The position numbers were made by a program, and so were the translations under genes. From NCBI GenBank assembly GCA_019114785.1, contig DXEV01000168.1, positions 2,515 to 66,514 of the forward strand: DNA of 64,000 nucleotides, read 5' to 3'. Below the pieces are notes generated by a model. The model ran no database searches. It was not told where the DNA came from and saw only the letters and a program-made list of their open reading frames with translations. Source of the stretch: Candidatus Anaerobiospirillum pullistercoris (GTDB lineage Bacteria > Pseudomonadota > Gammaproteobacteria > Enterobacterales > Succinivibrionaceae). Shown here piece by piece: positions 15,722 through 37,990 of the stretch; positions within the stretch are counted from its first letter, which is position 1; each line of letters starts with the position of its first letter.

Positions 15722-15724
15722 GTC

Positions 15725-18407: not shown

Positions 18408-18409
18408 TT

Positions 18410-19009: not shown

Positions 19010-19018
19010 GGAGTCCGC

Positions 19019-20248
19019 ATGTTTACAATCGTATCGGGCGTGGTGATGTTTGTGGTGTTAGTGGCCGTATTGGTCGCTCTCATCCTCGTTGCCAAGCGCT
19101 TCTTAGTTAGTTCAGGCGATATCAACATTGGCATCAATGATGATCCGTCTTTAGGCTTCAAGTGCCCAGCCGGTAACAAGCTGTTAAACAACTTATCCGA
19201 CAAGGGTATCTTCGTATCCTCCGCTTGCGGTGGTCGTGGTGCTTGCGGTCAATGTAAGGTTCAGGTCACCAAAGGCGGTGGTGACGTGTTACCAATCGAG
19301 TATTCTCACTTCACCAAGCGTCAGATCCGTGAGGGTTGGCGTTTAGCTTGCCAGGTGACCGTGAAGAATGACTGCGAGATCAAGCTGCCACAAGAGATCT
19401 TTGGTGTGAAGAAGTGGGAGTGTGAGGTTATTTCCAATAACAACGTCGCCACCTTCATCAAAGAGTTACGTTTACGCGTGCCTGAGGGCGAGGAAGTTCC
19501 ATTCCGCGCTGGTGGTTACATTCAGATCGAAGCCCCAGCTCACACTGTGTACTACAAGGACTATGACATTCCTGAGGAGTACCGTGGCGACTGGAACCAC
19601 TTTGGTCTGTTTGACTTAGTCTCCAAGGTTGATCACCCAACCATTCGTGCTTACTCCATGGCTAACTACCCAGATGAGAAGGGCCTCATTATGCTGAATG
19701 TGCGTATTGCGACCCCTCCATTACGTCAGCTTAAGGAGGTACCACCAGGCATTATGTCCTCCTACATTTGGAGCTTAAAGCCAGGTGATAAGGTGACCAT
19801 TTCTGGCCCATTCGGTGAGTTCTTTGCTCGTGATACTGACAACGAGATGGTGTTCATCGGTGGTGGTGCTGGTATGGCTCCAATGCGTTCGCACATCTTC
19901 GACCAGTTAAAGCGTCTTAACACCAAGCGTAAGATCTCTTTCTGGTACGGTGCTCGTTCGCTGCGTGAGGCTTTCTACGTAGACGAGTTCGATCAGTTAG
20001 CTAAGGAGCATCCAAACTTCACTTGGACTCTGGCTTTATCCGATGCTCTGCCAGAGGATAACTGGACTGGTGCAACCGGCTTCATTCACAACGTTCTGTA
20101 TGAGAACTACCTCAAGAATCACAAGAATCCTGAGGATTGTGAGTTCTACATGTGCGGCCCTCCAATGATGACCAAGTCCTGCGTCAACATGCTGCACAGC
20201 TTAGGCGTTGAAGATGAGAACATCCTGTTCGATAACTTCGGCGGTTAA
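19019..20248 (+). CDS. nqrF: Na+-NQR subunit F
   Basis: N-terminal TM, a 2Fe-2S ferredoxin motif '[12 protein letters not shown]', FAD 'RAYSMANY' and NAD(H) 'GGGAGMAPM'. Confidence 0.95.
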
Positions 20249-20317
20249 TGCACACTGCAAGTAGTAGCCATCAGCGATGATGGCAAGGCCACAGCAGTGG
20301 TCACTACTTGATAAGAA

Positions 20318-20360
20318 AGAGGGTGAGCTCTCACAAGGGGCCCACCCTTTTTTGTTTTTG
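20318..20360 (+). terminator. Intrinsic terminator of the nqr operon
   Basis: AGGGTG (20320-20325) pairs with CACCCT (20343-20348). The loop contains the palindrome GTGAGCTCTCAC. TTTTTGTTTTTG follows. Confidence 0.7.
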
Positions 20361-20488
20361 TCTGCTGATGGCGAGAGCCTAGATGTTAAAATTAGTCGAC
20401 CCTAGGGGATGGATTGCCGCTATATTTCGGCTTTTTGCCCCTCCTTTCTTTTTGTCCTTTAGTCCTTGATGGTAGATGAGTCTTTCTC

Positions 20489-23400
20489 ATGGAAACAGCT
20501 GCAAAGATGGCTGAAAAAGCCAACATTAAGCAATTTTTGCAGGATTTTTGCGTCGAACCTCGCACACTCTCTGAGATCATGTTCAAGCTCTTCCATGATG
20601 TCTATCATGAGGATGAAGCTAAAACGAATGAGGCGCTTTCTGTGGTGCTGGAGTGCATTAAAGAGCGCGAGATCTTTGCTGATGTGACCTCCTGTATGGG
20701 CTTTAGAACTCATGACGACAATACGCGCTATCGCTCTCGTCAGACTAAAGGTGATGAAGAGGACAACCAAAACTCTTGGTCGCTCGAAGATTTCCGTGAG
20801 ATCTTAAAGTTCCTGTCCTTTTTCTATGATCTGGCCTCTGGCTCTTTTTCCTACGAGGTCATCAGCCCAGATTGCCTTTACGGTCGAAGCACGACCGCCA
20901 AGCGTAATACGCTCATTGAGCCTAATGGTTTTTCTCTTGTAGATACCGTCTCCTTACGCAATGACAACCCAGATGATGCCTCAAAGTTCTCTGGATTTGT
21001 GCGCTTAACCGATTCTGAGTTTGTGAATGCCATTCGTGCGCGGATTAACCAAAAAGACGAGGCCCGTATGGTGCTGGGGGCACCGCTCTTGGTGGTGGAC
21101 AATAAGCGACATGGCGGTTACGAGAACGGTAAGAGCCCATCAGGTTCTAAGCTGGCCCGCTTTAGCTTAGTGCCTGTGTTCTATTTTTCCCTGACTAAGG
21201 CTAAGTTCACCTCCGAGCGCACCTTGCAAAGTGGCGAGGTTATTGGCCCTTTCCTGAATGAGAGCTTTACCAGCCAGATGCTTAAGCTCTACGATGGCAA
21301 GCGTAGTAAACGTAATATTAAGCAGTTGCTTGCAGGTTTAGAGGCGGAGGCAGCAGCTCTGATCGAAAAGGAAAACGATCTGATGACGGTTTGGGAGGGC
21401 ATAAACCGCATTATCTTCACGTTTTTCTCTGATATCTGCTATGGGGCTGGTGGCGACCTTGCTATTGGCAAGATCGGTAAGTTTCAGAAGCTCACAAATC
21501 TCGATCATCTAAGCTCTTTGCTCGTGAATGCCGCCTTAGTGGCACCTGCAAGTGAGTCCAATTTCTCGATCAATACTTCACGGGACTTTAAGAAGATCCT
21601 CCAAGCCTCAGATGATGAGCTGCGCCAGAGTGCCCTGAGCTGCTTCTTTTCTGATCCTAAGACGGATTCCGTTCGAGCTAACAGCTTTAATGCCTTTGGC
21701 GTAGAGAGTCAGGCGGCTGTGGTCTATGACCTCAACGATTCCTATCCTTGTGATCAGGATCAGGCTCAAGCTGTGCGCTCCATGCTTAAGAATGACCTGA
21801 CGGTGCTGCAAGGCCCACCTGGTACCGGTAAGACCATGACTGTGGCTACGGCTGCTTACAACCACCTGTTGCGCGGGCAAAAGGTGTTGGTGACTTCCTA
21901 TAACCATGCGGCTATCGATGCCTTTTACGAGAAGTCGATCATTGAGTTACCTCAAGGCCGTTTTCGCTTTGCTAAGCTCTTGAAGAATCCTGATAACTCC
22001 ACTGCGCTGACTCTCAAGCAGTTAGCTCAAGATCTGGTGCAGCGCTCGAAGCAGGTGTCGGTGGAGCAGACGCAGGCTTTTGAGCATTTTGCGTCGTCGG
22101 TGGAGCAAAAAGAGCAAGAAATTGCGGGATTAGAGCGTCTTTTGCGTGAGTTTGATGTTGATTTTAATAAGAAGCAGTCTGAGCTCGACGAGCAAATGAT
22201 CTGGTTCTTGCGTCAATATGCCACTAACGCTGCTACTGCCGAGTTCCCTAAAGATGTGCACGAGTTTATTTACAAGCAGCTGCTAGAGCCGCTCTTTGGC
22301 CTGAAAAAGGAAAAGGAGAGCGAGAACTGGTCTTTTCATGTGCCTTTCTATACCGAGGCCAAGCAGCAAAAGCAGTATGAGGATGGGATTAACGATCTGA
22401 AGCAGAAACTAGCAGAGCATTCAGAGCTCGACGATACCTATCATCGTCAAGATGGATGTCTAAAGCATCTGCGCCAAAATGTTTACGATTTCCTCAAGGG
22501 TAACAAGCTTATTTACCGTCTGAAGCATGATCAGCTACTGGATATCTTGGATCGAGTGTTGGAGCTGACTCACTTTAAGTCTGCTCTCTGCCAGCAGAAG
22601 AAGGATTTAGGTCTTTCTGAGCCAGACAATCCTGTGCTGGATTTTGGTGAGATCCATGAGCGTATTGTGAATACACGTGCTCAGATCACCAATGATGTCA
22701 CTCAATGGATTGCTAAGATCTCGCCTCAGGAAGAGTTAGTGCCTGCCAAAGCAGGCGCAGGTGCAGGTGCTGGCGTAGGCGCTGGTGGTGTTGTTGGTGG
22801 TGCTAATGATGCTGAGATGAAGAGCCAATGGAAAGCGCCTGCTGTGACTTCGTTGGCAGTTGTGAGTCTGCTGCGTAATGTGCTCAAGCAAAAGGATGTG
22901 GATGAGCTGCTGCTTAAGCCAAAGTATGCGGCAGCAGTATTGGATTTCTTCCCAGTGAGCACTTGCACCTTGCTGAGTGTGGCTGGATCTTTGCCGCTGC
23001 AAAGCGCCATGTTTGATCTGGTGATTTTTGATGAGGCGGCGCAGTTTAACTTCATTGACGCCATACCGATCATGTTCCGTGCTAAGCGTGTGGCGGTGGT
23101 GGGTGATCCTAAGCAGTTAGCGCAGATTGGTTCTTATTCCCAGTCCTTAGTTCTCAAGATTGCTAAAGCCGTTGGTCTGCCAGATAGTCTGAGATTGCGT
23201 CTTGATTGCAATGCCTCGCTCTACGACTTTGCTAATCACAATTGCGCCACTAATATCAAGAAACAAGAACGTGAGCGTGATGGGGAGCTGCACGAGCTTA
23301 ATGGCCTTGATGGCCTTAATGGCTTTAATGGCAAGGATCTTGGCCAAGGTGAGCTCAAAGAGCTTATCTTGCGTCAGAATCGTCGTTCGGTGGGCGATAT

Positions 23401-24472
23401 TGTCAGCTATATTTCGCGCAGCTTCTATGAGGATCAACTGACATGTAAAACTGAGGTTAACCGTCCACAGTTAGAGGCTGAGCATAGGATCTTGCCAGAT
23501 ATGGAGATGGGCTTGCACTTTGTGCAGGTGCCTCACGATGAGCTGTTTAAAGATCCTCTCTCTCGCTCCTCTTTTTCGACTGTAGAAGCTCAGCGTACAC
23601 TGGAGCTTTTACAGCAGATTGTGGCCAGTGGCTATCGTGGCACTATTGGCGTGATTGCTCCATTTAGACGACAGATTGGTGAGCTGCAAATGCTGGTGCT
23701 CAGAGATCCAACGCTGCGTGCGCTCTACCAAGAGGGGGAGCGCTTGGTGATCGACACAGTGCACCGCTTCCAGGGTCGTGATTGCGATACCATCATCTAC
23801 AACCTCTGCTTAGCTGCAAGCGGTGGTAGCCAGTTTGCTCTTGATGAGAACATCACTAATGTGGCTTTGTCCCGTGCGCGTTATTATCTGTTTGTGGTGG
23901 GAGATCATCTGGCCTTACAGGTGCACGCCAATCAGTCTTTTGTCCGTAATTTGCTGCCATTTGTAGCTTCCCATAATATATCAGGACAAGCCGATGGCGA
24001 GCACAGTGCCGCGTTTGCCGCGTTTGCCGATGTTGCTAAGATCCGCCCATGCTTTGATAGAGTGCGTTTTGATACAGTCTGGGAGCGGATCCTTTTCGAC
24101 CAGCTACGGATTGAGCTGAGAAAAGATGAGTTCTTTGCGCTCTATGATATCCCTCACATGATCTTTACCCAGCTGCCGATTCTGAACTATCGATTAGATA
24201 TGGCCATGATCTGCGGTAATAGGGGCTTAGATATCGAGTGCGATGGCTCTCAGCATTACGTGAATTGGTTTAGCGCTGACAACTTTAAACTGGTGCCCTC
24301 AGATCTCAAACGTGAGGCTGACCTAAGGGCCAATGTTGTGAGTTTTGAGACTATCCGTTTCCGGAATATAGAGATTGAGAACAATCCTGAAGCTTGCGCC
24401 AAGAAGGTGTTAGAGCGCTTTAAGGCGATTGTGCGCGAGGTTCAAGCAGTAGCTCAATCTGCACAGGGATAG
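20489..24472 (+). CDS. SF1B (Upf1/DNA2-like, AAA_11/AAA_12) helicase fused to a C-terminal DUF559/Vsr-like endonuclease domain; unknown 430-aa N-terminal region
   Basis: Walker A is 'LQGPPGTGKT' (GPPGTGKT at nt 21812-21835, from aa 442). Walker B is 'VIFDEAAQ' (DEAAQ at nt 23030-23044, from aa 848). Further helicase motifs are 'VVGDPKQL', 'LRQNRRS', 'TVHRFQGRDCD' and 'NVALSRARYYLFVVGD'. The C-terminus 'GLDIECDGSQHY ... DLKREADLRANVVSFETIRFRN' fits the DUF559/Vsr-type nuclease pattern. About 400 aa of largely helical, partly low-complexity (AGAGAGAGVGAGG) sequence lie between motifs I and II. Confidence 0.85.
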   Translation: METAAKMAEKANIKQFLQDFCVEPRTLSEIMFKLFHDVYHEDEAKTNEALSVVLECIKEREIFADVTSCMGFRTHDDNTRYRSRQTKGDEEDNQNSWSLEDFREILKFLSFFYDLASGSFSYEVISPDCLYGRSTTAKRNTLIEPNGFSLVDTVSLRNDNPDDASKFSGFVRLTDSEFVNAIRARINQKDEARMVLGAPLLVVDNKRHGGYENGKSPSGSKLARFSLVPVFYFSLTKAKFTSERTLQSGEVIGPFLNESFTSQMLKLYDGKRSKRNIKQLLAGLEAEAAALIEKENDLMTVWEGINRIIFTFFSDICYGAGGDLAIGKIGKFQKLTNLDHLSSLLVNAALVAPASESNFSINTSRDFKKILQASDDELRQSALSCFFSDPKTDSVRANSFNAFGVESQAAVVYDLNDSYPCDQDQAQAVRSMLKNDLTVLQGPPGTGKTMTVATAAYNHLLRGQKVLVTSYNHAAIDAFYEKSIIELPQGRFRFAKLLKNPDNSTALTLKQLAQDLVQRSKQVSVEQTQAFEHFASSVEQKEQEIAGLERLLREFDVDFNKKQSELDEQMIWFLRQYATNAATAEFPKDVHEFIYKQLLEPLFGLKKEKESENWSFHVPFYTEAKQQKQYEDGINDLKQKLAEHSELDDTYHRQDGCLKHLRQNVYDFLKGNKLIYRLKHDQLLDILDRVLELTHFKSALCQQKKDLGLSEPDNPVLDFGEIHERIVNTRAQITNDVTQWIAKISPQEELVPAKAGAGAGAGVGAGGVVGGANDAEMKSQWKAPAVTSLAVVSLLRNVLKQKDVDELLLKPKYAAAVLDFFPVSTCTLLSVAGSLPLQSAMFDLVIFDEAAQFNFIDAIPIMFRAKRVAVVGDPKQLAQIGSYSQSLVLKIAKAVGLPDSLRLRLDCNASLYDFANHNCATNIKKQERERDGELHELNGLDGLNGFNGKDLGQGELKELILRQNRRSVGDIVSYISRSFYEDQLTCKTEVNRPQLEAEHRILPDMEMGLHFVQVPHDELFKDPLSRSSFSTVEAQRTLELLQQIVASGYRGTIGVIAPFRRQIGELQMLVLRDPTLRALYQEGERLVIDTVHRFQGRDCDTIIYNLCLAASGGSQFALDENITNVALSRARYYLFVVGDHLALQVHANQSFVRNLLPFVASHNISGQADGEHSAAFAAFADVAKIRPCFDRVRFDTVWERILFDQLRIELRKDEFFALYDIPHMIFTQLPILNYRLDMAMICGNRGLDIECDGSQHYVNWFSADNFKLVPSDLKREADLRANVVSFETIRFRNIEIENNPEACAKKVLERFKAIVREVQAVAQSAQG

Positions 24473-24565
24473 GTTTATACGGCATAAGTTTGTAGCTGAG
24501 CTGTTAAAGCTGTCGCTAGAGCTTAGGTTTGGGATAAGAGTTTTGGTAATTTTGCAGGAACACAG

Positions 24566-26605
24566 ATGGCTATGGAAGAACAAGCCCCAGACGTTGACGC
24601 AAAGGGAGCTCCTGATCAAGGTATAGACTCCAGTGGGCAGGAAAAGAGCGCTTATATTCATGAGGTTGCGCGCAAAGATAAGACGAGCCAAAAGATCAGT
24701 GTTTGGGCATTCTCGCTTATAGTTATCCTTTTCGCTTTTATCTTTGTCGGTTATGTGAGCTGGGTGCTGATAGTTAACTCAAGCCAAACAGATAAGATCC
24801 GTGAAGCCGTTGAGAATCATGCGGATTTGATTGCTTTGGTGACGCAGTCTAAGCAGGATATTGCCCATTTACGTAGTGACAAGCTGGAATTAGAACAAGA
24901 GGTATCTACTTTAACAGCTCAGCGCGACGATCTCGATATCAAGGTGAAAGAGCTTTTGGCCACCAAGCAAGAGATCGATAGCTACTATCAAGAGTATAAG
25001 CTGCGTAAGGACGCTCTGGAAAAGGAATATAGCCTACAAGAGGAAGGCTTAAAGCAGCTTAGTGATAAGCTCGTAGCTACGCAATCTGATGTGACCAAGG
25101 CTGAGGTGGAGCTGGCTGATCTACAAAGTAAGGTAGAGGCTAATCGCCAGTTGGAGCAGCAAAATCGTAAGTTACTCCAAGAGCAAGATAAGTTACAGCG
25201 ACAAAAGAGTCAGCTGGAAACTGAGATAGCTTCGCTGGAGACTACCGTGAAGCAGCATGAGGACACCCTGCGTGCGCTGGCTGCGCGTGAGCAAGAGGTG
25301 GGCTCCATTACTAATCAGCTCAAGGAATTAGTCGCAGGATACGGTGAGCAGGTGACGTCTTTGCTGGATAGCAGCACTAAGCTCAACTCTTTAGCCACAT
25401 CATTGGCGGCCCAAGAGCAAAGTGCCACGTCCTTTGTTAAGCAAGCCGATGCCATGACCAAGCAACTGGATACTATTGGCCAGACTTTAGGGCAGCATGG
25501 CTCCACCATCAATTCTGCTGCTACCAATATTAACGATGCCGTTGCTAAGACCTCTAATGCTATTCATGAGGCCGAGCAGGGACTCAATGCAACGTTTACC
25601 AAGGTTACAGAGTCGTTAGGTCAATCCGAGGAGAAGATGAATGCTGCATTGTCTAGTACATCTAATGCCTTAGAGAGTGCAGGGGATAGTGTGACTAAAG
25701 CAGTGACCCAAGCTACCCAAAGCTTGAGCAATGCTACGGAAAAGGCTGTGACTTCTGTGAACACTGCCGAGAAGAGTGTCACCAGTGCCATCACCAAGAC
25801 TACGACAGCTTTAGCCTCAGCTGAGAAGAGCATAACGGATGTTGCCTCTAATGCAGTGACCCAAGCTACCCAGAGCTTTAGCGCCGCTACGGAAAAGGCA
25901 GTGGCCTCTGTGAATACAGCCGAGAAGAGTGTCATCGATGCTTTCGCTAAGACTACGACTGCGCTGAATTCAGCTGAGCAGAACCTAACGGCGGCTGCCT
26001 CGCAGACCGCAACTGCTATGCAAAGCTTTAGCGCCACTACGGAAAAGGCAGTGACCTCAGTGAACACTGCCGAGAAGAGTGTCACCGATGCCTTCGCTAA
26101 GACTACGACAGCTTTAGCTTCAGCAGAGAAGAACATAACTGATGTTGCCTCTACTGCTGTGACCCAAGCTACCCAGAGCTTTAGCGCCGCTACGGAAAAG
26201 GCAGTAGCCTCTGTGAATACGGCCGAGAAGAGTGTCACCGATACCTTCACCAAGACCACGACTGCGCTGAATTTAGCTGAGCAGAACCTGACGGCTGCAG
26301 CCTCACAGACAGCAATTGCTATGAGTCAAGCCCAAGAAAACGTAAGTTTAGCTTTGACTCAGTCTGTGTCAAATCTCAATGAGCAAGTACAACAGCTTAG
26401 AGCCTCTTTAATGCAGGTTCAGGGCGACTTACAGCAATTTATCCAAGGTCTAGAAACTCAGCAGGCTGGTGCTAATGAGGCTGTGTCATCGCAGTTGTCT
26501 CAGCTGCAAACTCAGCTACAGGAGCTACAGCAGAGCCTTGAGCAGGTGAGCCGTCAGGCCGTGCAGGTGGACGAGGCTACTGTAGCCGTTCCAGAAGCAA
26601 ATTAA
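24566..26605 (+). CDS. Membrane-anchored coiled-coil protein with tandem 50-51-aa repeats
   Basis: One predicted TM ('ISVWAFSLIVILFAFIFVGYVSWVLIV') lies near the N-terminus. About 200 aa of heptad-like K/E/Q/L-rich sequence follow. Then come 4-5 tandem Ala/Thr/Ser-rich repeats ('ATEKAV(T/A)SVNTAEKSV.DAF.KTTTAL.SAE'), then a Q/L-rich tail. AGGAA lies 7 nt upstream of the ATG. I recognise no enzymatic motif. Confidence 0.75.
   Translation: MAMEEQAPDVDAKGAPDQGIDSSGQEKSAYIHEVARKDKTSQKISVWAFSLIVILFAFIFVGYVSWVLIVNSSQTDKIREAVENHADLIALVTQSKQDIAHLRSDKLELEQEVSTLTAQRDDLDIKVKELLATKQEIDSYYQEYKLRKDALEKEYSLQEEGLKQLSDKLVATQSDVTKAEVELADLQSKVEANRQLEQQNRKLLQEQDKLQRQKSQLETEIASLETTVKQHEDTLRALAAREQEVGSITNQLKELVAGYGEQVTSLLDSSTKLNSLATSLAAQEQSATSFVKQADAMTKQLDTIGQTLGQHGSTINSAATNINDAVAKTSNAIHEAEQGLNATFTKVTESLGQSEEKMNAALSSTSNALESAGDSVTKAVTQATQSLSNATEKAVTSVNTAEKSVTSAITKTTTALASAEKSITDVASNAVTQATQSFSAATEKAVASVNTAEKSVIDAFAKTTTALNSAEQNLTAAASQTATAMQSFSATTEKAVTSVNTAEKSVTDAFAKTTTALASAEKNITDVASTAVTQATQSFSAATEKAVASVNTAEKSVTDTFTKTTTALNLAEQNLTAAASQTAIAMSQAQENVSLALTQSVSNLNEQVQQLRASLMQVQGDLQQFIQGLETQQAGANEAVSSQLSQLQTQLQELQQSLEQVSRQAVQVDEATVAVPEAN
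25690..26320. repeat. Tandem 150/153-bp coding repeats (303-bp super-repeat) inside the 24566-26605 gene
   Basis: The (A/T)TEK repeat anchor, keyed on its conserved ACGGAAAAGGC string, recurs with Thr codons at 25736, 25889, 26039 and 26192 (spacings 153, 150, 153 bp). Flanking sequence is near-identical. Confidence 0.85.
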
Positions 26606-26711
26606 GAGTCTTAATCTGCTTCCAGCGCCCGCCCCTCACCAGTCCCAGCTGCTATGGGTGAGACTATAGAAGTGTGAGGAGCGGGTCAGTTGAAGTGGTA
26701 GGAGCGGACTG

Positions 26712-29700
26712 TTAGCTTTCGTCTTTTCCTTCCTCATCTAGGCCTTGCAGCTCAGACATAATGTTAGGGTTACTACCCTCTTTGCGCAGGTACTTCTTAA
26801 CCTCTGGTAAGAGAATATTAAGTTTTTCCTCGACAAAAGAGTGGAACCGCTCTGTAAAGACATAAGATATACGTCTTCCTTTGTTGTAGGGCTCTCGCTG
26901 CTGAATTTGCTGATCGAGTCGTTGGTATGTGCTCAGTGTGTCGTCTAGCAGTTGTTCTATCTCAACAATCTCTGCTTCGTCGATGAAGTTTAGTTCTTCC
27001 TTACGGTAAAGCAGAGAGTACAGCATTACTCTAAGCGACAAGCTGAGTGAACTGCTTCCGATCACTGATTGAGCTTTTATGATTTTTTCACCTAGCTCTG
27101 GGTTATGCACTGTAGCTCGGATTTTATCTTTACTGCTGTCGAGGAGAGCGCGTGCAAACTCAGCCCCCATGCTGAAGTCTTTGGATGACGGGGAAAAGAC
27201 CTGAGGGTGATTTTCGATCAGTAGCAAGGCACCATTCATGTGCCTAGTCTTAAGCGGTGCCATTTGAAGCAGCCATTGACAGCACTTGTTAACCGCTTCC
27301 TTAGAATCAGGCACGAACATACAGTAGCGATGCATTAGCTTGCTCTTGTCTAGAAAATTAGTGCCTATCCTAAAGGCCTGCTCCACGGCTAGAGCTACTG
27401 TATTTGCGATTCCTTCAAGATCAGGGTTGCCAAAAGGCTTAGCTTGAGGGAATGGTAGACATTGGTCGATGTTATCGCAGAATGCTTTAAAGTCACCTTT
27501 TCTGATGTTGGCAAGCAAGAGGGCATGATACATTCTATGGTCTTGCAATAGACGAGCATGGATCTTCTGCTTCATTGTTTGGGAGCCGAATTCACCATTG
27601 TAATACACCAGATCTTGCTGTTTGCGCCCGCCACGGAAAATGATATCCTCTTGCGTTAACTTCTGTTGCCTACGTTGGATTGTAGTAGCTAATTGACCGC
27701 GTGGTTTTAATAATGGTGGGTAGACGCGAGGTAGCTGTGGCAGCTTCTCCGTAAAATCGACTTTTTTGCTTGGATCAAACACTTGCACCTCGCCATGTTG
27801 AGGTAACACACTGCTGACTTCACTGGCGTCAGGATCTGGCTTAATGTGGATTTTGGCGTAGCCAGATAAGGCGCGTTGTTCCACCCAAACTATAACTGGC
27901 TCATCATTATGTGCTTTGCGGCCGGAGGCAAAGGTCAAGGTAGCCTTTTGTACTGATACTGGTGGACTTTGTAAGGTAAAAGGTGTTTCTGTGGCAAGAT
28001 TGATACTATCGTCGTTAAAAGCAGTATCGGTGGAAACGTAGAGCTCAACGTGATCGCTGCCTTTGTTAATAGCTAGTCCTACCTTAGAGCCGGTGATATT
28101 TTGTGTTGGTGCGATGGTGTCATCGTTAATCAGAACCTGCTCTTTGTACTCGGTGTGCTCCTTATTACTGATAACCATTGACAGCTTGGTTAAGCGATCA
28201 AGGTAGGTAGGATGTGTCTGGGGGGCATTGAGGTTGAGGCGTTCTTGGAATAGGAATCCACCTAAAGCCATGTGTTGCCACGCGGTGTTGTGGCGCGATA
28301 ATCTCAATGGTAGAGGATGGGCCTGCATGCTTGCAAGCGAGTCAATGGTTTGGGAATTGCCATAGAGCATTGGGCCAGTAATTAATAGGCACTCGTGTGG
28401 CTCGCTATAGTCTAGATCGTCGAGCTTGTGATCAATCATCACCTTGCGGATCCACTCAGTCATACCCATATAGGCGTCATATGGTATAAATTGCTCAGTA
28501 TCACATCCGTATAACTCATAGAATGATTGAATAGCTAATGAACGAGAGCGCACTTGGGCTCGTTGTTTATCTGTCAATAGCGTATGAATGTGGCACCATT
28601 TATCGATGCTGTGTTTTTGCGGTTGAGGTACACGTAAGACGCGTAAGTGTTCGCTGGTGTCAGATTGTCCCCATGCCTCTGGGAATTGATAGATCACTTG
28701 CGCTATGACCGCATTCTGTAGTTGCTTAAGGATCTGAACGTCGTTCTGCCTTTGAGCAGAAGATAAGCTCTCTATGAGCTTCGTGCTTAAAAACGTGTAA
28801 GCATAGCTGATAGCGTATTGCAAGAAACTGGTACCAATGGCGCAATTCTTATAGACCGATTCACGGCGAATAGGGATGACATAGCTCTGATCAGTGTGTA
28901 GCTTTAGATCATAAGTGGATAGATCGATACTGTCAGGGCCAATGTAGAGCACATGCACGGTAGCAGTATCTTTGTCCTCAGGGGTGTTGCCTTGTGATTC
29001 TTGGGGATGGCTGCTTACATGCTCCACTAGACGCAGCTCTGATTGCGAGCCTGAGTTACTGCTATCTAAACCAGCACGCATAGCCTCAATTTTTGCTCGT
29101 ATTGATTCAGGTGTTTGCTTAGAGTCTTCAGCCTCAAGTTGTTTGTCAAAATCAGCAAAGATATCATTGTTTTGGCTTAGATGCTCGTAAAAGCTAGTAG
29201 CTTCTTGGGATGTGGCCACCTTGGCGCGAGACTCTTCGGCCATATTGGCAATAGATAGGTGAGAGGCAGGCTTAGCTGTACCCATAATAGTGGCAAAGCT
29301 AGGTTCTGGAACAATGTCCTGATCCGAGTAAGCATTGAAGTGGCCGAGCAAGGTAGCAATGGAGCGCCAAAGTAATTGCACCTCAAAGCCAGAGAATGCG
29401 TTGATTAAGGCTTGCTGCTCTGCCTCATCGAAATTATCAGGAATGCAGATGACAAGTTGGCAGTGAGACTGTAGATAAGCCTTATTGGTACGTGTGATTT
29501 TGGCAGGGAGTCTATCCATAGCCTCTGTATCGTTTACAGGGGCGGGCGCTGTATTTGCGGTAGCACGTTTGTGCTCGTCAAAGGTATCGCAGGCTAGCTG
29601 GATGATGTACTTGGCAAGCGAGTTAGCAGCATGTTGCTTATTTTCATCTCGTGGTTGTAGGTGCTTGAGCTGTTGCCAGAGTAAGGCTACTGGGATTCGG

Positions 29701-29897
29701 CTGCTATAGTGGTCATTGTCGATAAGGCCAATACCAGTGCGCTCATACAGTGCATCTTGGCCATACATGTAGAGCTTATTTTCACGGTCTTCAATGACCA
29801 CCGAAGGTAAGTTGCTGTCCTGCATATATACCTTGCCATCAATGACAATGGTGTCAGCAAAGCCGAAAGCACTGATGCTGATAATAGACTTGGCCAT
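26712..29897 (-). CDS. Hsp70/actin-fold protein (NBD plus SBD-beta-like region) with degenerate nucleotide-binding motifs and ~330-aa helical C-terminal domain
   Basis: By-eye alignment to the Hsp70 motifs follows.
- 'IISISAFGFADTIVIDG...NLPSVVIEDRENKLYMYGQDA' corresponds to phosphate-1 plus 'TPSVVAF..G..A'.
- 'LVICIPDNFDEAEQQALINAFSGFEVQLLWRSIATLLGH' corresponds to 'VITVPAYFND.QRQATKDAG.IAGL.V.RIINEPTAAALAY'.
- 'VLYIGPDSIDLSTYDL' corresponds to 'V.DLGGGTFDVSIL'.
- 'LLITGPMLYGN' corresponds to 'ILVGG.TR.P'.
- 'MALGGFLFQERL' corresponds to 'AVA.GAA.QA..L'.
The start is coupled to the upstream gene: a 3-nt gap, with AGGAG 8 nt upstream of the ATG. Confidence 0.6.
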   Translation of the reverse strand: MAKSIISISAFGFADTIVIDGKVYMQDSNLPSVVIEDRENKLYMYGQDALYERTGIGLIDNDHYSSRIPVALLWQQLKHLQPRDENKQHAANSLAKYIIQLACDTFDEHKRATANTAPAPVNDTEAMDRLPAKITRTNKAYLQSHCQLVICIPDNFDEAEQQALINAFSGFEVQLLWRSIATLLGHFNAYSDQDIVPEPSFATIMGTAKPASHLSIANMAEESRAKVATSQEATSFYEHLSQNNDIFADFDKQLEAEDSKQTPESIRAKIEAMRAGLDSSNSGSQSELRLVEHVSSHPQESQGNTPEDKDTATVHVLYIGPDSIDLSTYDLKLHTDQSYVIPIRRESVYKNCAIGTSFLQYAISYAYTFLSTKLIESLSSAQRQNDVQILKQLQNAVIAQVIYQFPEAWGQSDTSEHLRVLRVPQPQKHSIDKWCHIHTLLTDKQRAQVRSRSLAIQSFYELYGCDTEQFIPYDAYMGMTEWIRKVMIDHKLDDLDYSEPHECLLITGPMLYGNSQTIDSLASMQAHPLPLRLSRHNTAWQHMALGGFLFQERLNLNAPQTHPTYLDRLTKLSMVISNKEHTEYKEQVLINDDTIAPTQNITGSKVGLAINKGSDHVELYVSTDTAFNDDSINLATETPFTLQSPPVSVQKATLTFASGRKAHNDEPVIVWVEQRALSGYAKIHIKPDPDASEVSSVLPQHGEVQVFDPSKKVDFTEKLPQLPRVYPPLLKPRGQLATTIQRRQQKLTQEDIIFRGGRKQQDLVYYNGEFGSQTMKQKIHARLLQDHRMYHALLLANIRKGDFKAFCDNIDQCLPFPQAKPFGNPDLEGIANTVALAVEQAFRIGTNFLDKSKLMHRYCMFVPDSKEAVNKCCQWLLQMAPLKTRHMNGALLLIENHPQVFSPSSKDFSMGAEFARALLDSSKDKIRATVHNPELGEKIIKAQSVIGSSSLSLSLRVMLYSLLYRKEELNFIDEAEIVEIEQLLDDTLSTYQRLDQQIQQREPYNKGRRISYVFTERFHSFVEEKLNILLPEVKKYLRKEGSNPNIMSELQGLDEEGKDES

Positions 29898-29900
29898 GTT

Positions 29901-31961
29901 TTAGCTCTCCTGAGTTGTGATGTCGTGGATGATGGAAGAGATCATTACCTCCATGGACTCTAAGCACTGTAACCACTCATCAGGACTGACAGTGATAGTA
30001 CTCATGAAGCATGAAGGGCAGACTTTATTGCGGGTGAGATTGCGGTTATTGGTGCCCGCAATGACTTTGATACCTATGTTGTTGTTGTATTTCCCCGCAT
30101 TATAGGTTTGCTTGTCTGCTTGAGAGAGGGACTGAGGTTTGGTGGTGCAAATGGTGTTAATCTTGTATGTTGGTGCGTTGGCTCTATACGTGACCATGTT
30201 AGCCTCACGCTGCACACTGAAGTTTTTTAGCTCCTTTAAGTCCCAGAACTGCTCAGTACTGACTAAGAAGCAAGGATATATAGGGATGGCAGGGGAACTA
30301 GATGCTCTATTTTCGAGCAGATCTTTAAACATAGCAGGAAGCTTGAGAAGTAAGCTATCACGCTCAGATTCGTCACGTAAAGCACAGTGCATAGAATACA
30401 GTGGAACTAAGACGTGTTGTACGGGCTCCCTTAGATCTTGGATGGAAGAGACCTTGGTGAATAACAAGAAAGATGGGGCCGTTGGCATGAGTTGCAATGT
30501 CACTTGTGGCCATAATTGGGTAATAGTGTTAGGAAGCCCCATGGAGTTGAGCTTTTCTGAGCCGAAAGTGATCACTTCTACAGTGTAAACGGAGCTAGGG
30601 CTTTGAATTAAAAAAGGCCCAGCTTCGCAACCTAACTTGATACGGTGGCCGTTGATCTGCTCGCGGCTAATATGTACGTAGGACTTGCCGATGGTATTGA
30701 TCTGATACCCGTACTGTAAGGGCCATTGAGAGCTATCGGCTAGATCACAGAGTGCTGCATTGATGAGTAGATCGCAGATGTCCTGAAATAGGTTCTGTTG
30801 GCAGTAGATAGTCTTATCCAGATCTCGTTTCTCGTGGATGAGATCGAGGTACATTTGCCAGATCTTTTTGTAGTCAGGATCTTTTTGCAGCACAAAGTTT
30901 GGCTTAGGCAGCGATGGCTGACGAGGCACAGCGGCCAAGGGCGATTTCTGAGAGAGCTCTTGGCAGCGCTGCTTGAAGATATTCATCTGATGAGTGATAG
31001 AGGAGTTAGCCAAAGCGCGGTTGCGGTTGCTCTTATCCTTGATCTCAAGGATGTATTGGGTAGATTTAGTGATACAGCGCTCTAAGAAATCCTTAAGCAC
31101 ACGGTTTTCTAGTAGATTGTAGGTTTCTTCTTTAGCCAGACCTAAGAAACGCATTTTGTTCTTTTGGGCCTTTTCTCGCAGAGTATCGCCTTCGAGGCGC
31201 AATAAGTACTCAAGGCACTTACCGTCCATTGCGTTGATGCGCTCTACAGGCAACAGCTTGCGGGTGTTGATTAGGCTTTTGCGTAGCTTGGCAGCAATAC
31301 GGCTTAGTGGATCTGAGGCCTTTTCGGCGATAGCAAGAATACGTGATCTTGAGATTTGCTCGTCATTACCACAGTACTGACAGATCAGTCGATTAAGATC
31401 GGCAAAGCGCACCATCTGTACATCGGAAAAGTCGCTTGTTTGGTTGTAGTTGATGAGATAGTCAAAAAATGCGAGCCAGCGTTCGAGGTACTGAAAGTAA
31501 TGTGCCTCGGAATTATGGTCATTTTTGTCAGAGCTAACCAGCACAAAGTCGATATTTCCTATGTTTTGCCCATTATAGTGGATAGACAAAGGTAAGGTGA
31601 CTGCCGTTGTGGTTGGTGTGGAAGGCTCTGCCGTAAGCAGAGTTTGCTGAATGCTCTTTTGCAGCTTATAAGGTAAGCTACTGACGGAGATTAAAGATGG
31701 TAGCGTGTAGATGCCAATATTGAGAGCTTCTCCGGCATAGGCGTAGATAAAAGCTTTTTTCTTGAACTGGTAACTTTGGCCATCGCGCTCATAGCAGAGG
31801 GTTAGGGGTAATTCACTGCTATAGCTCTGCTCCCGAGTAGAGATGGGTAATATTAAGTAGGCACAAGTCACTGCACCATGAGTACTTGGGACAATGACTT
31901 TTTTGTCAGTGTCTCGATCGACTTTTAGTAGAGGAAAATCACTGAGAAAACCTGCTGTCAT
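29901..31961 (-). CDS. McrC/DUF2357-like partner protein (nuclease core not recognisable by eye)
   Basis: 'EETYNLLENRVLKDFLERC' matches the conserved (D/E)T.ENRfLK helix of McrC/DUF2357 proteins. 'PNFVLQKDPDYKKIWQMYLDLI' and 'NLFQDICDLLINAAL' resemble the segment that precedes the PD-(D/E)xK core in that family. It lies immediately downstream of the McrB-like gene. Confidence 0.55.
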   Translation of the reverse strand: MTAGFLSDFPLLKVDRDTDKKVIVPSTHGAVTCAYLILPISTREQSYSSELPLTLCYERDGQSYQFKKKAFIYAYAGEALNIGIYTLPSLISVSSLPYKLQKSIQQTLLTAEPSTPTTTAVTLPLSIHYNGQNIGNIDFVLVSSDKNDHNSEAHYFQYLERWLAFFDYLINYNQTSDFSDVQMVRFADLNRLICQYCGNDEQISRSRILAIAEKASDPLSRIAAKLRKSLINTRKLLPVERINAMDGKCLEYLLRLEGDTLREKAQKNKMRFLGLAKEETYNLLENRVLKDFLERCITKSTQYILEIKDKSNRNRALANSSITHQMNIFKQRCQELSQKSPLAAVPRQPSLPKPNFVLQKDPDYKKIWQMYLDLIHEKRDLDKTIYCQQNLFQDICDLLINAALCDLADSSQWPLQYGYQINTIGKSYVHISREQINGHRIKLGCEAGPFLIQSPSSVYTVEVITFGSEKLNSMGLPNTITQLWPQVTLQLMPTAPSFLLFTKVSSIQDLREPVQHVLVPLYSMHCALRDESERDSLLLKLPAMFKDLLENRASSSPAIPIYPCFLVSTEQFWDLKELKNFSVQREANMVTYRANAPTYKINTICTTKPQSLSQADKQTYNAGKYNNNIGIKVIAGTNNRNLTRNKVCPSCFMSTITVSPDEWLQCLESMEVMISSIIHDITTQES

Positions 31962-35012: not shown

Positions 35013-35717
35013 AGCAGTGAGCGTAAGTTGGTTGTAAGCAGCAGCGCGCTGCTGGAGTGGTGTTGGTGTCGGTTAATGCCCGCCCGCTAAGGGTAGCAGG
35101 GCGGTAACAATATGGTAGCTGTTAAAAACTGGTATTGGACTTAAAGTGTGGATCCTTGTTGGAGTAGGTTTCAGGTAAGGACTTTGGATCGTACATGCAG
35201 GCTAAGCGGTGTGCTTTGCCAAGCTGCATTAAAGGGATTTCTAGTCGCTATTTTTCGCCCATTTTAATCCCAATAGAGGTGTTTGTAACTAGTGCTAAGA
35301 CACAGATGTGATAACGGCAAGCTTCAATATATGGGCTGTGTGTTCGGCAAGCGAGCGCTGGCGCGGAACAACATTGAGGTTTTGGCGGTGCCTGTTGGGT
35401 GGCGTGATTTTGGGCGGATGTTATGAGGTTGGGCAATGGTGCAGGGAGTAGTGACCGCGAGGGGCGAGCCTTGTGGTGGCTAGGGGCGGGCGCTTGGACT
35501 GTGTTTTTGGGGTGGGCGCTTGAGCCCAAGGGGCGGGCGCTGTGGCTGGCGCTGAGCCACGGCGGCAGCTTAATTCTTCAAAGCGTGACCTGTGCTCAAC
35601 TATTGCCCTCATTTTTTTGTTACGATAGCTGGTATGTAAGAGAGTCCTCTGGCCTGTGTCTCTTTGTCTTGCCTTGAGGCTACCTCTTGCTGGTTTTCCA
35701 CGTTGAGGAGCAATTTA

Positions 35718-36335: not shown

Positions 36336-36347
36336 CTTTAGTAGGAT

Positions 36348-37951: not shown

Positions 37952-37990
37952 CGAAAAATTCCTCTTCTCAGCTGCCTCCAAGTGGTTTTA

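What the first reader, a model, noticed from the sequence alone, without database searches (positions are those of the whole stretch)
20489..24472. Upf1/DNA2-like SF1B helicase with a 400-aa insertion between motifs I and II and a terminal DUF559/Vsr-like nuclease
Seen:
- A complete SF1B motif set is present.
- Walker A is at aa 442-449 and Walker B at aa 848-852. The intervening ~400 aa are helical, coiled-coil-like sequence plus a (GA)n/GV tract (nt ~22745-22800).
- A second low-complexity patch, 'NGLDGLNGFNG', follows the Q-L motif.
- The last ~150 aa match the DUF559/Vsr-like endonuclease pattern ('LDIECDGSQHY', 'READLRA', 'IRFRN').
- The first 430 aa match nothing I recognise.

Established:
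- Upf1-like helicases act on RNA and DNA.
- DUF559 domains are PD-(D/E)xK-type nucleases.

Inference: this is the effector or translocase arm of the island and may supply the nuclease activity.
Basis: partly seen in the sequence, partly recalled or inferred. Interest (0 to 1): 0.7.

Follow-up and report, generated by a model that had tools for sequence, protein, structure and literature searches.

The report
Helicase-nuclease of a CoCoNuT defence system
This gene encodes the helicase-plus-nuclease subunit of a five-gene, McrBC-derived anti-phage system of a kind already described by computer analysis in 2024 (Type III-B CoCoNuT), found here in a chicken-gut bacterium, a host group where that type was not said to be common.

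Summary
ORF 20489-24472 (+) encodes a 1327-aa Upf1-like SF1B helicase. It has about 400 aa between Walker A and Walker B and a C-terminal DUF559/Vsr-like domain whose acidic and histidine residues are invariant across the family.

It is not an orphan. In all 8 family subclades sampled it sits with the same four partners: a coiled-coil McrB GTPase with an NxD motif, a DUF2357 McrC with no conserved nuclease triad, an Hsp70-like protein (Foldseek to DnaK, E 6.6e-9) and a pure coiled-coil protein. That is the gene set published as Type III-B CoCoNuT (Bell et al., eLife 2024), where this helicase is called CnuH/CnuHE. A syntenic relative lies on a Rhizobium tropici plasmid.

The host is Candidatus Anaerobiospirillum pullistercoris (Gammaproteobacteria). 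The cassette occupies a hot spot between nqrF and a sialic-acid cluster. In sister genomes that site is empty or holds a Type ISP restriction enzyme.

The two low-complexity tracts are strain-specific DNA tandem repeats. The N-terminal 400 aa have no relatives outside the family, and their fold assignment is inconclusive.

Verdict: a new member of a known but experimentally untested kind.

The parts
20489..24472 (+). cnuH (CnuHE): 1327-aa Upf1-like SF1B helicase fused to a Vsr/DUF559-like nuclease. Deposited as HIX57486.1, 'AAA family ATPase'.
   Evidence: ORF; Pfam AAA_11, AAA_12, DUF559; PDB relatives Sen1/SETX, Upf1, DNA2, IGHMBP2; identity of the deposited protein.
20489..21688 (+). CnuH N-terminal module (aa 1-400). 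The model shows a three-helix bundle (aa 2-58), a disordered linker (63-94), a beta-rich domain (149-256) and long helices (258-316).
   Evidence: AF2 model, mean pLDDT 68, about 80-87 over aa 150-330. Foldseek against PDB gave no significant hit; the best were Aquarius, Sen1 and SETX at E 0.07-2.2. Only 6 family members found among 1.84 billion proteins.
21701..21964 (+). RecA1 first part, aa 405-492: motif I GPPGTGKT (442-449) and motif Ia VLVTSYNHAAID.
   Evidence: aligns to the Rhizobium helicase at 37.5% identity.
21965..22912 (+). Helical insertion, about aa 493-808, between motifs Ia and II, at the position of subdomain 1C in Upf1-family helicases. It is the most divergent block among close alleles.
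   Evidence: Spacing; heptad-like blocks 502-586, 620-710, 716-745; Upf1 and SETX alignments bracket it; 59-82% identity here against 90-100% in the N-terminus for close alleles.
22751..22785 (+). In-frame 6/12-nt tandem repeat that encodes the (GA)n/GV tract; strain-specific.
   Evidence: TRF; present only in the window and P0002.
22913..23923 (+). RecA1 second part plus RecA2, aa 809-1145: motifs II DEAAQ, III GDPKQL, IV LRQNRRS, V TVHRFQGRD, VI NVALSRAR.
23297..23332 (+). In-frame 9-nt tandem repeat (CTTAATGGC, 4 copies) that encodes NGLDGLNGFNG; strain-specific.
24056..24421 (+). Vsr/DUF559-like PD-(D/E)xK-type nuclease domain, aa about 1190-1311. Invariant residues: D1237, D1248, E1250, D1252, H1256, R1275, R1290.
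   Evidence: Pfam DUF559 in 11 of 11 members and MTES_1575 in 11 of 11; the best PDB sequence hit is the DUF559 structure 3HRL, E 0.06, with signature blocks aligned; invariant columns.
24566..26605 (+). cnuA: 679-aa protein that is almost entirely coiled coil, with no other domain.
   Evidence: No Pfam hit; only sub-threshold hits to SMC/Rad50/ZorA coiled-coil regions; heptad-like over aa 67-679; orthologues follow cnuH in every locus.
26712..29897 (-). cnuD: 1061-aa Hsp70-like NBD/SBD protein with C-terminal helical repeats.
   Evidence: AF2 model, pLDDT 72. The top 7 Foldseek hits are all DnaK, E 6.6e-9 to 4.9e-4, probability 1.00. No sequence-level hit to any family.
29901..31961 (-). cnuC: 686-aa McrC homologue (DUF2357) with a C-terminal region that lacks a conserved D...(D/E)xK triad.
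   Evidence: Pfam DUF2357, E 1.5e-12; five-sequence alignment.
32055..35012 (-). cnuB: 985-aa McrB-like AAA+ GTPase with about 575 aa of N-terminal coiled coil and the signature GTMNDDES (NxD followed by E).
   Evidence: AAA_5; PADLOC PDC-M26A, E 6.5e-45; motif alignment; heptad-like over aa 44-619.
20335..20350 (+). Terminator-like hairpin with a T-run after nqrF, separating the nqr operon from cnuH.
   Evidence: Consensus scan only; sequence seen.
19019..20248 (+). nqrF: left border of the hot spot.
   Evidence: Pfam; identical NqrF flanks empty or differently filled sites in L095-L100.
35664..36173 (+). DUF386 (YhcH/YjgK/YiaL) gene: right border of the hot spot and start of the sialic-acid cluster.
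   Evidence: Pfam; same flank in L001 and L095-L100.

Best explanation
The ORF encodes CnuH (CnuHE), the helicase-nuclease subunit of a five-gene Type III-B-type CoCoNuT system. This is an McrBC-derived, Type IV-restriction-like anti-phage system. Here it is carried as a gain-and-loss cassette in a defence hot spot of Candidatus Anaerobiospirillum pullistercoris.

Shown:
- An intact SF1B motor.
- A conserved insertion of about 300 aa, helical and heptad-rich, at the subdomain-1C position.
- A C-terminal Vsr/DUF559 domain with its acidic and histidine residues invariant.
- Obligatory linkage to CnuA (pure coiled coil), CnuB (coiled-coil NxD McrB GTPase), CnuC (McrC with a degenerate nuclease) and CnuD (Hsp70-like).

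Inferred mechanism:
- The CnuB-CnuC GTPase module and the Hsp70-like CnuD act as the sensing and licensing part.
- The long coiled coils of CnuA and CnuB dock the helical insertion of CnuH.
- Once engaged, CnuH translocates 5'->3' on a single strand using ATP, as all characterised Upf1-family enzymes do.
- Its Vsr-like domain, the only intact nuclease in the cassette, cuts the invading nucleic acid.

It is not established whether the substrate is RNA, as Bell et al. argue for CoCoNuTs in general, or DNA, which is the classical substrate of Vsr-type nucleases.
For: Architecture.

Linkage. The five orthologous genes (26-49% identity) are found in L001, L002/3, L004/5, L006, L092, L093 and L094, as far as each contig reaches.

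Partner features.
- CnuB carries the NxD-E motif.
- CnuC is DUF2357 without a conserved catalytic triad.
- CnuD matches DnaK by Foldseek, E 6.6e-9.
- CnuA and CnuB are coiled coils.

Nuclease. The Vsr domain is conserved: DUF559 in 11 of 11 members, with invariant D/E/H residues.

Published definition. The Type III-B definition matches gene for gene (PMC11090510; preprint supplement).

Alphaproteobacterial relative. A syntenic H-A-B-C-D system lies on Rhizobium tropici pRtrCIAT899b. Its CnuH matches at 201 bits including the Vsr domain, CnuB at E 2e-80 and CnuC at E 6e-19.

Defence context. With an identical NqrF, the same site is empty in 4 genomes and holds a Type ISP restriction enzyme in another. 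Flanking proteins are 80-93% identical while the system proteins are 36-47% identical.

Experiment on a related type. A Type II CoCoNuT-like locus protects P. aeruginosa against RNA phages and one DNA phage (preprint 10.64898/2026.04.06.716636).
Against: - There is no experimental evidence for any Type III-B system.
- The published N-terminal wHTH (Sul7s-like) and OB fold of III-B CnuH could not be confirmed. The model has moderate confidence and Foldseek gave nothing significant.
- The N-terminal 400 aa show no significant similarity to the Rhizobium N-terminal fragment or to anything outside the family.
- CnuD and CnuA are only weakly similar, or not similar at all, to their Rhizobium counterparts.
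- The published III-B reference sequences could not be retrieved, so placement in the CnuB GTPase tree is untested.
- Inactivation of CnuC is judged from a 5-sequence alignment only.
- Docking by coiled coils, the order of events and the substrate are all inference.
Confidence: 0.85

Rival explanations
1. It is a CoCoNuT, but of a separate, undescribed subtype that only parallels Type III-B. Under this reading it has its own non-homologous N-terminal sensor module on CnuH and much larger CnuB, CnuC and CnuD proteins.
For: - The N-terminal 400 aa have no relatives outside the roughly 40-member family and no significant match to the Rhizobium N-terminal fragment.
- Foldseek did not recover a wHTH or OB fold.
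- The proteins are 25-70% longer than the Rhizobium ones: CnuH 1327 aa against about 1050, CnuD 1061 against 764, CnuC 686 against 405, CnuB 985 against 673.
- The host is a gammaproteobacterium, whereas III-B is reported mainly from Alphaproteobacteria.
- The window's CnuB is about as close to a non-III-B-type CoCoNuT CnuB (36%) as to the Rhizobium one (33%).
Against: - Gene content and every testable domain feature match III-B.
- The published classification rests on the GTPase tree plus gene context, and the context is met.
- The model's topology, an N-terminal helical bundle followed by a beta-rich domain, is compatible with wHTH plus OB.
Confidence: 0.12
2. It is a stand-alone helicase-nuclease defence gene of the Hhe or Mokosh kind that merely lies next to an independent McrBC-like system in a defence island.
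For: - PADLOC MkoA hit (E 9e-52) and Hhe hit (1e-10); NCBIfam Hhe, ProA and PLuB hits.
- Remote helicase-Vsr fusions P0043 and P0048 have no McrBC neighbours.
- cnuH-cnuA forms its own transcription unit, and its orientation flips between loci.
Against: - The hits cover only the generic helicase core (aa 811-1161) and are far below the curated cut-offs: Hhe scores 44.8 bits against 2000.
- There is no PLD domain.
- Linkage to CnuB/C/D holds in 8 of 8 subclades and on the Rhizobium plasmid.
- All five genes are gained or lost together at the hot spot.
Confidence: 0.02
3. It is a housekeeping DNA-repair or RNA-surveillance helicase (DNA2-like or Upf1-like) of the host.
For: Sequence similarity to DNA2, Upf1, Sen1 and IGHMBP2; chromosomal location next to core genes.
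Against: - It is absent from sister genomes with an identical NqrF.
- It diverges far faster than its flanks.
- Its nuclease is C-terminal and Vsr-type, not the N-terminal Fe-S PD-(D/E)xK nuclease of DNA2.
- It is embedded in an McrBC-type cassette.
Confidence: 0.01

Closest known systems
CnuH/CnuHE of Type III-B CoCoNuT (Bell, Sahakyan, Makarova, Wolf, Koonin, eLife 2024; PMC11090510)
   Same: - A Upf1-like SF1 helicase with a large helical insertion after Walker A and a Vsr-like nuclease fused directly to the C-terminus.
- Encoded with a separate pure coiled-coil CnuA, a coiled-coil NxD CnuB, a DUF2357 CnuC with an inactive nuclease and a separate Hsp70-like CnuD.
- No TerY-P module.
   Different: - Gammaproteobacterial gut host (Anaerobiospirillum) rather than mainly Alphaproteobacteria.
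- All proteins are larger.
- The N-terminal 400 aa are family-restricted, and the published wHTH and OB folds could not be confirmed.
- cnuHA lies convergent to cnuBCD here.
Five-gene system on Rhizobium tropici CIAT 899 plasmid pRtrCIAT899b (NC_020061.1, about 436-449 kb), annotated only as AAA-domain, hypothetical and DUF2357 proteins
   Same: Syntenic H-A-B-C-D set. The helicase matches through the Vsr domain (201 bits to the family profile). CnuB carries GTMNEDEST (E 2e-80). CnuC matches at E 6e-19.
   Different: Only 27-33% identical. The helicase is split by an IS21. The N-terminal fragment, CnuA and most of CnuD are not detectably similar in sequence.
Type II CoCoNuT-like 'Obs' locus of Pseudomonas aeruginosa (preprint 10.64898/2026.04.06.716636)
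   Same: The same system class (CnuB/CnuC plus a CnuH helicase), and the only CoCoNuT-type system found with experimental anti-phage evidence, against RNA and DNA phages.
   Different: Seven genes. In Type II the effector is a separate HEPN protein (CnuE) and TerY-P is usually present (PMC11090510). It has no fused Vsr domain and no separate CnuD or CnuA.
Hhe and other stand-alone bacterial Upf1-like helicase + Vsr/MTES_1575 fusions
   Same: AAA_11/AAA_12 helicase core with a large motif I-II insertion and a C-terminal Vsr-type nuclease.
   Different: These are single-gene systems of 1400-1900 aa, with DUF4011 and other N-terminal domains and no McrBC partners. The NCBIfam Hhe score is 44.8 against a cut-off of 2000.
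Mokosh MkoA/MkoC
   Same: Upf1/MOV10-like helicase core; best PADLOC hit (E 9e-52) over aa 811-1161.
   Different: Mokosh is defined by a PLD nuclease, either separate (MkoB) or fused (my own knowledge of Millman et al. 2022). No PLD domain is present here, and the partners are different.
Eukaryotic Upf1, Sen1/senataxin, IGHMBP2 and DNA2
   Same: SF1B motifs I-VI; accessory domains inserted in RecA1; 5'->3' single-strand translocases (established knowledge); best PDB sequence hits.
   Different: In the alignments the segment between the motif I block and the motif II block is about 80 aa in Upf1 and about 180 aa in senataxin, against about 340-355 aa here. They have no Vsr domain. DNA2's nuclease is N-terminal and of a different type.

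Membership tests
Type III-B CoCoNuT (PMC11090510) | CnuB: McrB-like GTPase with the NxD signature motif (not NxxD), usually followed by E or D. | tested here: met
   AAA_5 hit. GTMN(D/E)DES is invariant in 5 orthologues, and the same motif is present in the Rhizobium and Siccirubricoccus homologues.
Type III-B CoCoNuT (PMC11090510) | Long coiled coil fused to CnuB. | tested here: met
   Heptad-like over aa 44-619. Sub-threshold hits to SMC, Rad50 and JetC coiled-coil regions. Heuristic only; no dedicated coiled-coil predictor was available.
Type III-B CoCoNuT (PMC11090510) | CnuC: McrC homologue with a DUF2357 N-terminal domain. | tested here: met
   PF09823, E 1.5e-12; also called in the related loci.
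Type III-B CoCoNuT (PMC11090510) | CnuC: PD-(D/E)xK fold retained but catalytic residues lost. | tested here: inconclusive
   The C-terminal half has conserved blocks (AGPFL, LEVV..GS, TAP.YL) but no invariant D...(D/E)xK in 5 orthologues. The fold itself was not modelled.
Type III-B CoCoNuT (PMC11090510) | CnuC: N-terminal immunoglobulin-like beta-sandwich. | not tested
About 190 aa precede the DUF2357 region.
Type III-B CoCoNuT (PMC11090510) | CnuD: a separate gene encoding an Hsp70-like NBD/SBD plus HEAT-like helical repeats. | tested here: met
   AF2 model. The top 7 Foldseek hits are DnaK NBD+SBD, E 6.6e-9 to 4.9e-4, probability 1.00. The C-terminal domain (aa 772-1050) is all-helical with pLDDT about 90 and gives weak TPR/ARM-type hits.
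Type III-B CoCoNuT (PMC11090510) | CnuH: Upf1-like SF1 helicase with a large helical insertion after Walker A. | tested here: met
Type III-B CoCoNuT (PMC11090510) | Vsr-like PD-(D/E)xK nuclease fused directly to the CnuH C-terminus, with no separate CnuE. | tested here: met
   DUF559 above the Pfam cut-off in 11 of 11 members; 3HRL alignment; invariant D1237, D1248, E1250, D1252, H1256.
Type III-B CoCoNuT (PMC11090510) | wHTH (Sul7s-like) at the CnuH N-terminus. | tested here: inconclusive
   The model shows three helices at aa 2-58 followed by a disordered linker. No significant Foldseek hit.
Type III-B CoCoNuT (PMC11090510) | OB-fold domain in CnuH (Upf1 1B-like, without a stalk). | tested here: inconclusive
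   Beta-rich domain at aa 149-256, pLDDT about 80-87. The best hits are Upf1-family helicases (Aquarius, Sen1, SETX) but they are not significant: E 0.07-2.2, TM below 0.2.
Type III-B CoCoNuT (PMC11090510) | Separate coiled-coil protein CnuA with no other recognisable domain. | tested here: met
   No Pfam domain; heptad-like over aa 67-679; only hits to coiled-coil regions.
Type III-B CoCoNuT (PMC11090510) | No TerY-P (vWA, PP2C, Ser/Thr kinase) module. | tested here: met
   Only the five genes lie between nqrF and DUF386.
Type III-B CoCoNuT (PMC11090510) | CnuB GTPase domain falls in the III-B branch of the published phylogeny. | not testable with these tools
   The Type III-B sheet of the supplementary file is cut off in the stored copies. 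Accessions ATX65552.1, TBW38397.1 and TBW38399.1 could not be fetched.
Mokosh (MkoA+MkoB, or MkoC) | PLD-family nuclease, separate or fused to the helicase. | tested here: not met
   No PLD domain in CnuH or its neighbours. The PADLOC MkoA match covers only the helicase core, aa 811-1161.
Hhe | Single-gene DUF4011-helicase-Vsr protein that reaches the NCBIfam equivalog score. | tested here: not met
   NF042953 scores 44.8 bits against a cut-off of 2000, over aa 814-877 only. There is no DUF4011.
Canonical McrBC Type IV restriction | NxxD GTPase motif, a small DNA-binding N-terminal domain on McrB, and a catalytically intact McrC. | tested here: not met
   The motif is NxD-E. The N-terminus is a coiled coil of about 575 aa. 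CnuC has no conserved triad.

The most novel reading that the evidence does not exclude
The Anaerobiospirillum clade is a distinct CoCoNuT subtype. In this reading the CnuH N-terminal 400-aa module is a lineage-specific sensor unrelated to the wHTH/OB of alphaproteobacterial III-B. The helical insertion, which is the most divergent block among otherwise near-identical mosaic alleles, would be a rapidly evolving specificity or partner-docking determinant, shaped by recombination and diversifying selection at a fixed nqrF-nan hot spot.
Probability: 0.2. Interest if true: 0.5.

Novelty: new member of a known kind. Interest (0 to 1): 0.3.

Why it matters
Type III-B CoCoNuTs are known only from comparative genomics. 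Nobody has shown what they restrict or whether the fused Vsr domain cuts RNA or DNA.

This locus offers a compact test case of about 14.5 kb. It has clean borders, natural empty-site controls in sister genomes, and a series of divergent and mosaic alleles at the same chromosomal site. That makes it suitable for cloning, for point-mutant tests of the helicase and nuclease, and for asking which parts evolve fastest.

It also extends the type to gut Gammaproteobacteria (Succinivibrionaceae). Finally, it gives a proper name to proteins now deposited only as 'AAA family ATPase', 'DUF559 domain-containing protein' or 'hypothetical'.

Tried and rejected
- A profile of 5 CnuD sequences against PDB sequences found nothing. 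A database search with the same profile found only 44 full-length family members, none with a Pfam domain. The Hsp70 relationship showed up only by structure.
- I looked for a real DnaK among the held loci to run a profile-profile test. None was present.
- tblastn of CnuD against plasmids found no match.
- Foldseek of the CnuH N-terminal model against PDB gave no significant hit.
- hmmsearch and hhalign of the family profile against the Rhizobium N-terminal fragment were not significant.
- The supplementary tables of both versions of the CoCoNuT paper are cut off before the Type III-B sheet.
- A literature search for the PADLOC candidates PDC-M26 and PDC-S37 found nothing.
- Rfam and tRNA scans of the window found nothing.
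- Rejected readings: Mokosh (no PLD domain), Hhe (far below the cut-off, and multi-gene linkage), DNA2-like repair enzyme (wrong nuclease type and position, and an accessory gene). I also rejected the idea that the (GA)n and NGLDG tracts are functional features, because they are strain-specific tandem repeats.

Full report
**1.

The ORF at 20489-24472 (+) is real: 1327 aa with an ATG start.
- Motif I, GPPGTGKT, aa 442-449.
- Motif II, DEAAQ, aa 848-852.
- Motif III, GDPKQL, aa 872-877.
- The (GA)n/GV tract, aa 755-772.
- NGLDGLNGFNG, aa 938-948.
- The C-terminal strings LDIECDGSQHY, READLRA and IRFRN.

Pfam finds AAA_11, AAA_12 and DUF559, all above their curated cut-offs. The nearest solved structures by sequence are senataxin/Sen1, Upf1, DNA2 and IGHMBP2, which make up the Upf1-like SF1B clade.

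The alignments to Upf1 and senataxin bracket the insertion. The stretch between the motif I block and the motif II block is about 340-355 aa here, against about 80 aa in Upf1 and about 180 aa in senataxin. From established knowledge of Upf1-family structures, this is where subdomain 1C (the 'prong') is inserted into RecA1.

**2. A sharply bounded family**

A search of 5.8 billion proteins returned about 40 full-length relatives at 32-91% identity. E-values then dropped from 1e-122 to 1e-30, into generic helicase-nuclease fusions.

Within the family all SF1B motifs are invariant. So are the nuclease-domain residues D1237, D1248, E1250, D1252, H1256, R1275 and R1290. All 11 diverse members tested match Pfam DUF559 and, more weakly, the related restriction-endonuclease model MTES_1575. 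The best solved-structure match of the domain profile is the DUF559 protein 3HRL. That match is weak (E 0.06), but the Y..D.E.DG.QH and R...L...RF.N blocks align.

The motif I-II spacing is 362-453 aa across the family. Other bacterial Upf1-like hits have 252-342 or 620-734 aa, so a big insertion is normal in this bacterial clade. A crude heptad heuristic, calibrated on three globular proteins of the window, marks aa 502-586, 620-710 and 716-745 as coiled-coil-like.

The two low-complexity patches exist only in the window and one close allele. They correspond to in-frame DNA tandem repeats with 6/12-nt and 9-nt units. They are recent slippage products in variable loops and do not define the family.

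**3. The gene is one of five**

In distant relatives (34-43% identical helicases) the neighbours are always the same.
- An AAA_5 McrB-like protein.
- A DUF2357 McrC-like protein.
- An unannotated protein of about 950-1000 aa.
- The helicase.
- An unannotated protein of 460-680 aa directly after the helicase.

Three further subclades show the same partners as far as their contigs reach. The five window proteins are orthologous to these at 26-49% identity.

Two layouts occur. Some loci are co-linear (B-C-D-H-A). Others, like the window, have the H-A pair convergent with B-C-D. So cnuHA and cnuBCD behave as two transcription units. A terminator-like hairpin at 20335-20350 separates cnuH from the upstream nqr operon. 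This comes from a consensus scan only.

**4. The set matches a published type**

Bell et al. (eLife 2024, PMC11090510) describe CoCoNuTs, 'coiled-coil nuclease tandems'. According to that paper, Type III-B consists of the following.
- CnuH: a Upf1-like helicase with a large helical insertion after Walker A, a Vsr-like nuclease fused directly to it, an N-terminal Sul7s-like wHTH and an OB fold.
- CnuA: a separate protein that is nothing but coiled coil.
- CnuB: a coiled-coil McrB GTPase with an NxD instead of an NxxD motif.
- CnuC: DUF2357, an Ig-like sandwich and an inactivated PD-(D/E)xK domain.
- CnuD: a separate Hsp70-like NBD/SBD protein with HEAT-like repeats.
- No TerY-P module.

The preprint supplement lists the authors' own evidence for 'CnuHE': wHTH against 7bzh, OB against 2xzp, and Vsr against 1VSR by HHpred at E 1e-4.

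**5. Testing each feature**

- CnuB carries GTMN(D/E)DES, that is NxD followed by E, invariant in five orthologues. About 575 aa of heptad-like sequence precede the GTPase domain.
- CnuC has DUF2357. Its C-terminal half has conserved blocks but no invariant D...(D/E)xK. That is consistent with inactivation, although the fold was not modelled.
- CnuD has no sequence-level match to anything. Its AF2 model (pLDDT 72) shows two beta-beta-beta-alpha lobes, a beta-sandwich and a confident C-terminal helical-repeat domain. The seven best Foldseek hits are all DnaK NBD+SBD, at E 6.6e-9 to 4.9e-4 and probability 1.00.
- CnuA is heptad-like from residue 67 to its end and has no other domain.
- Only these five genes lie between the flanking core genes, so TerY-P is absent.
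- The CnuH N-terminus stays unresolved. The model (pLDDT 68) has a three-helix bundle at aa 2-58, a disordered linker, a beta-rich domain at 149-256 and long helices. This is compatible with wHTH plus OB. However, Foldseek found nothing significant, and the best non-significant hits were the Upf1-family helicases Aquarius, Sen1 and senataxin.

**6. A direct link to Alphaproteobacteria**

tblastn against plasmids found one hit, Rhizobium tropici CIAT 899 pRtrCIAT899b. Its annotation shows a helicase interrupted by an IS21. Four genes follow: a 465-aa hypothetical, a 673-aa hypothetical, a DUF2357 protein and a 764-aa hypothetical.

| Rhizobium protein | Match to the window system |
|---|---|
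| Helicase | 201 bits to the family profile, including part of the insertion and the Vsr domain |
| 673-aa protein (motif GTMNEDEST) | 33% identical to CnuB, E 2e-80 |
| DUF2357 protein | matches CnuC, E 6e-19 |
| 764-aa protein | weak match to CnuD, E 2e-4 |

The 465-aa protein and the severed N-terminal fragment are not significantly similar to their window counterparts.

The nearest helicase outside the family, from the alphaproteobacterium Siccirubricoccus, also sits beside a coiled-coil NxD McrB. That McrB is 36% identical to the window's CnuB (E 1e-75). The helicase lacks the Vsr fusion, so this looks like another CoCoNuT type.

By contrast, two remote helicase-Vsr fusions of similar size have no McrBC neighbours. 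The fusion itself is widespread; the five-gene linkage is what defines this family.

**7. Host and locus**

The protein is deposited as HIX57486.1, 'AAA family ATPase', from Candidatus Anaerobiospirillum pullistercoris. The lineage is Gammaproteobacteria, Aeromonadales, Succinivibrionaceae. The paper reports Type III-B mainly from Alphaproteobacteria.

The cassette lies between nqrF and a DUF386-ROK-SSF-NanA-NanE sialic-acid cluster. L001 has the same flanks. There the flanking proteins are 80-93% identical to the window's, while the five system proteins are only 36-47% identical.

In genomes whose NqrF is identical to one another's, and at least 90% identical to the window's, the same site varies.
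- Empty in four genomes.
- Holding a 1738-aa Type ISP restriction-modification enzyme in one.
- Holding IS elements plus small ORFs in another.

This is the behaviour of a defence hot spot, and the five genes come and go as a unit.

Close alleles of CnuH are mosaics. One is 97-100% identical over aa 1-500 but 70-82% identical in several later blocks. The insertion is the most divergent block, at 59-61% identity where the N-terminus is 87-98% identical.

**8. Mechanism**

Shown:
- An intact SF1B motor.
- A conserved Vsr/DUF559 catalytic set.
- A McrC partner without a conserved catalytic triad.
- Obligatory linkage to two long coiled-coil proteins, an NxD GTPase and an Hsp70-like protein.

Inferred:
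- CnuB-CnuC, with CnuD, sense or license the response.
- Coiled-coil contacts dock the CnuH insertion. Bell et al. propose the same on the basis of multimer models of other subtypes.
- CnuH translocates 5'->3' on a single strand, and its Vsr domain cleaves the target.

The substrate is open. Bell et al. argue for RNA, by analogy with the HEPN-bearing types and the Hsp70-like CnuD. Vsr-type enzymes classically cut DNA.

I found one piece of experimental evidence for the class. A Type II-like locus in P. aeruginosa protects against RNA phages PP7 and LeviOr01 and against one DNA phage (preprint 10.64898/2026.04.06.716636). I found nothing experimental on Type III-B.

**9. Verdict**

The thing is already described as a type, so this is a new member, from a new host lineage, of a known but untested kind.

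The residual novelty lies in three points. The N-terminal module is restricted to the family: only 6 hits among 1.84 billion proteins, all family members. The proteins are larger than their Rhizobium counterparts. The alleles at a fixed hot spot are mosaic and fast-evolving.

Noticed in passing
window 20249-35663; loci L095-L100: The interval between nqrF and the DUF386 gene is a variable hot spot. With an identical NqrF protein it is empty in four genomes (L095, L096, L098, L100), holds a 1738-aa Type ISP restriction-modification enzyme in L097, and holds IS66/ISL3 elements plus small unknown ORFs in L099.
   Followed up: partly
window 20489-26605 versus 26712-35012; L001, L002, L004, L006, L092: The cnuH-cnuA pair is inverted relative to cnuB-cnuC-cnuD in some loci. 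The window, L004, L006 and L092 are convergent; L001 and L002 are co-linear. The flanks stay in the same orientation.
   Followed up: partly
window 20489-24472 (CnuH) versus P0002, P0007, P0020, P0023: Close alleles are mosaics. P0007 is 97-100% identical over aa 1-500 but 70-82% identical in later blocks, and P0002 shows the opposite pattern. The helical insertion (aa 500-800) is the most divergent block, which suggests recombination and perhaps diversifying selection.
   Followed up: partly
window 14348-20248 and 35664-37981 versus L001: Flanking Nqr, DUF386 and ROK proteins are 80-93% identical between the window and L001. The five system proteins at the same site are only 36-47% identical.
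   Followed up: yes
L091 (Rhizobium tropici pRtrCIAT899b, NC_020061.1, about 436-449 kb): The alphaproteobacterial five-gene relative has its helicase gene split by an IS21 (istA/istB) insertion into a 317-aa N-terminal ORF and a 733-aa C-terminal ORF, so it is probably inactive. It is annotated only as AAA-domain, hypothetical and DUF2357 proteins.
   Followed up: partly
L087 (Siccirubricoccus sp. G192, JAHREN010000002.1): A CoCoNuT-like locus: a helicase without Vsr, a 478-aa protein, a coiled-coil NxD McrB and a DUF2357-like fragment. It sits in a defence island next to SIR2-HerA, a NERD protein, a large kinase and HigB.
   Followed up: no
window 10861-12612 (+): A 583-aa ORF with AAA-ATPase_like and PDDEXK_9 domains lies between the MFS transporter gene and nqrA. 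In L095-L100 that gap is only about 1.6 kb with no called gene, so this is a second small variable region.
   Followed up: no
window 47908-50484 (+): An 858-aa ORF with no Pfam hit at E 1e-5, lying between an RpiR-type regulator gene and an aldose epimerase gene.
   Followed up: no
window 32055-35012 (-): The only strong PADLOC match of CnuB is to the uncharacterised candidate family PDC-M26A (E 6.5e-45). None of the other four proteins matched a PDC-M26 component, and no paper in the library mentions PDC-M26.
   Followed up: partly
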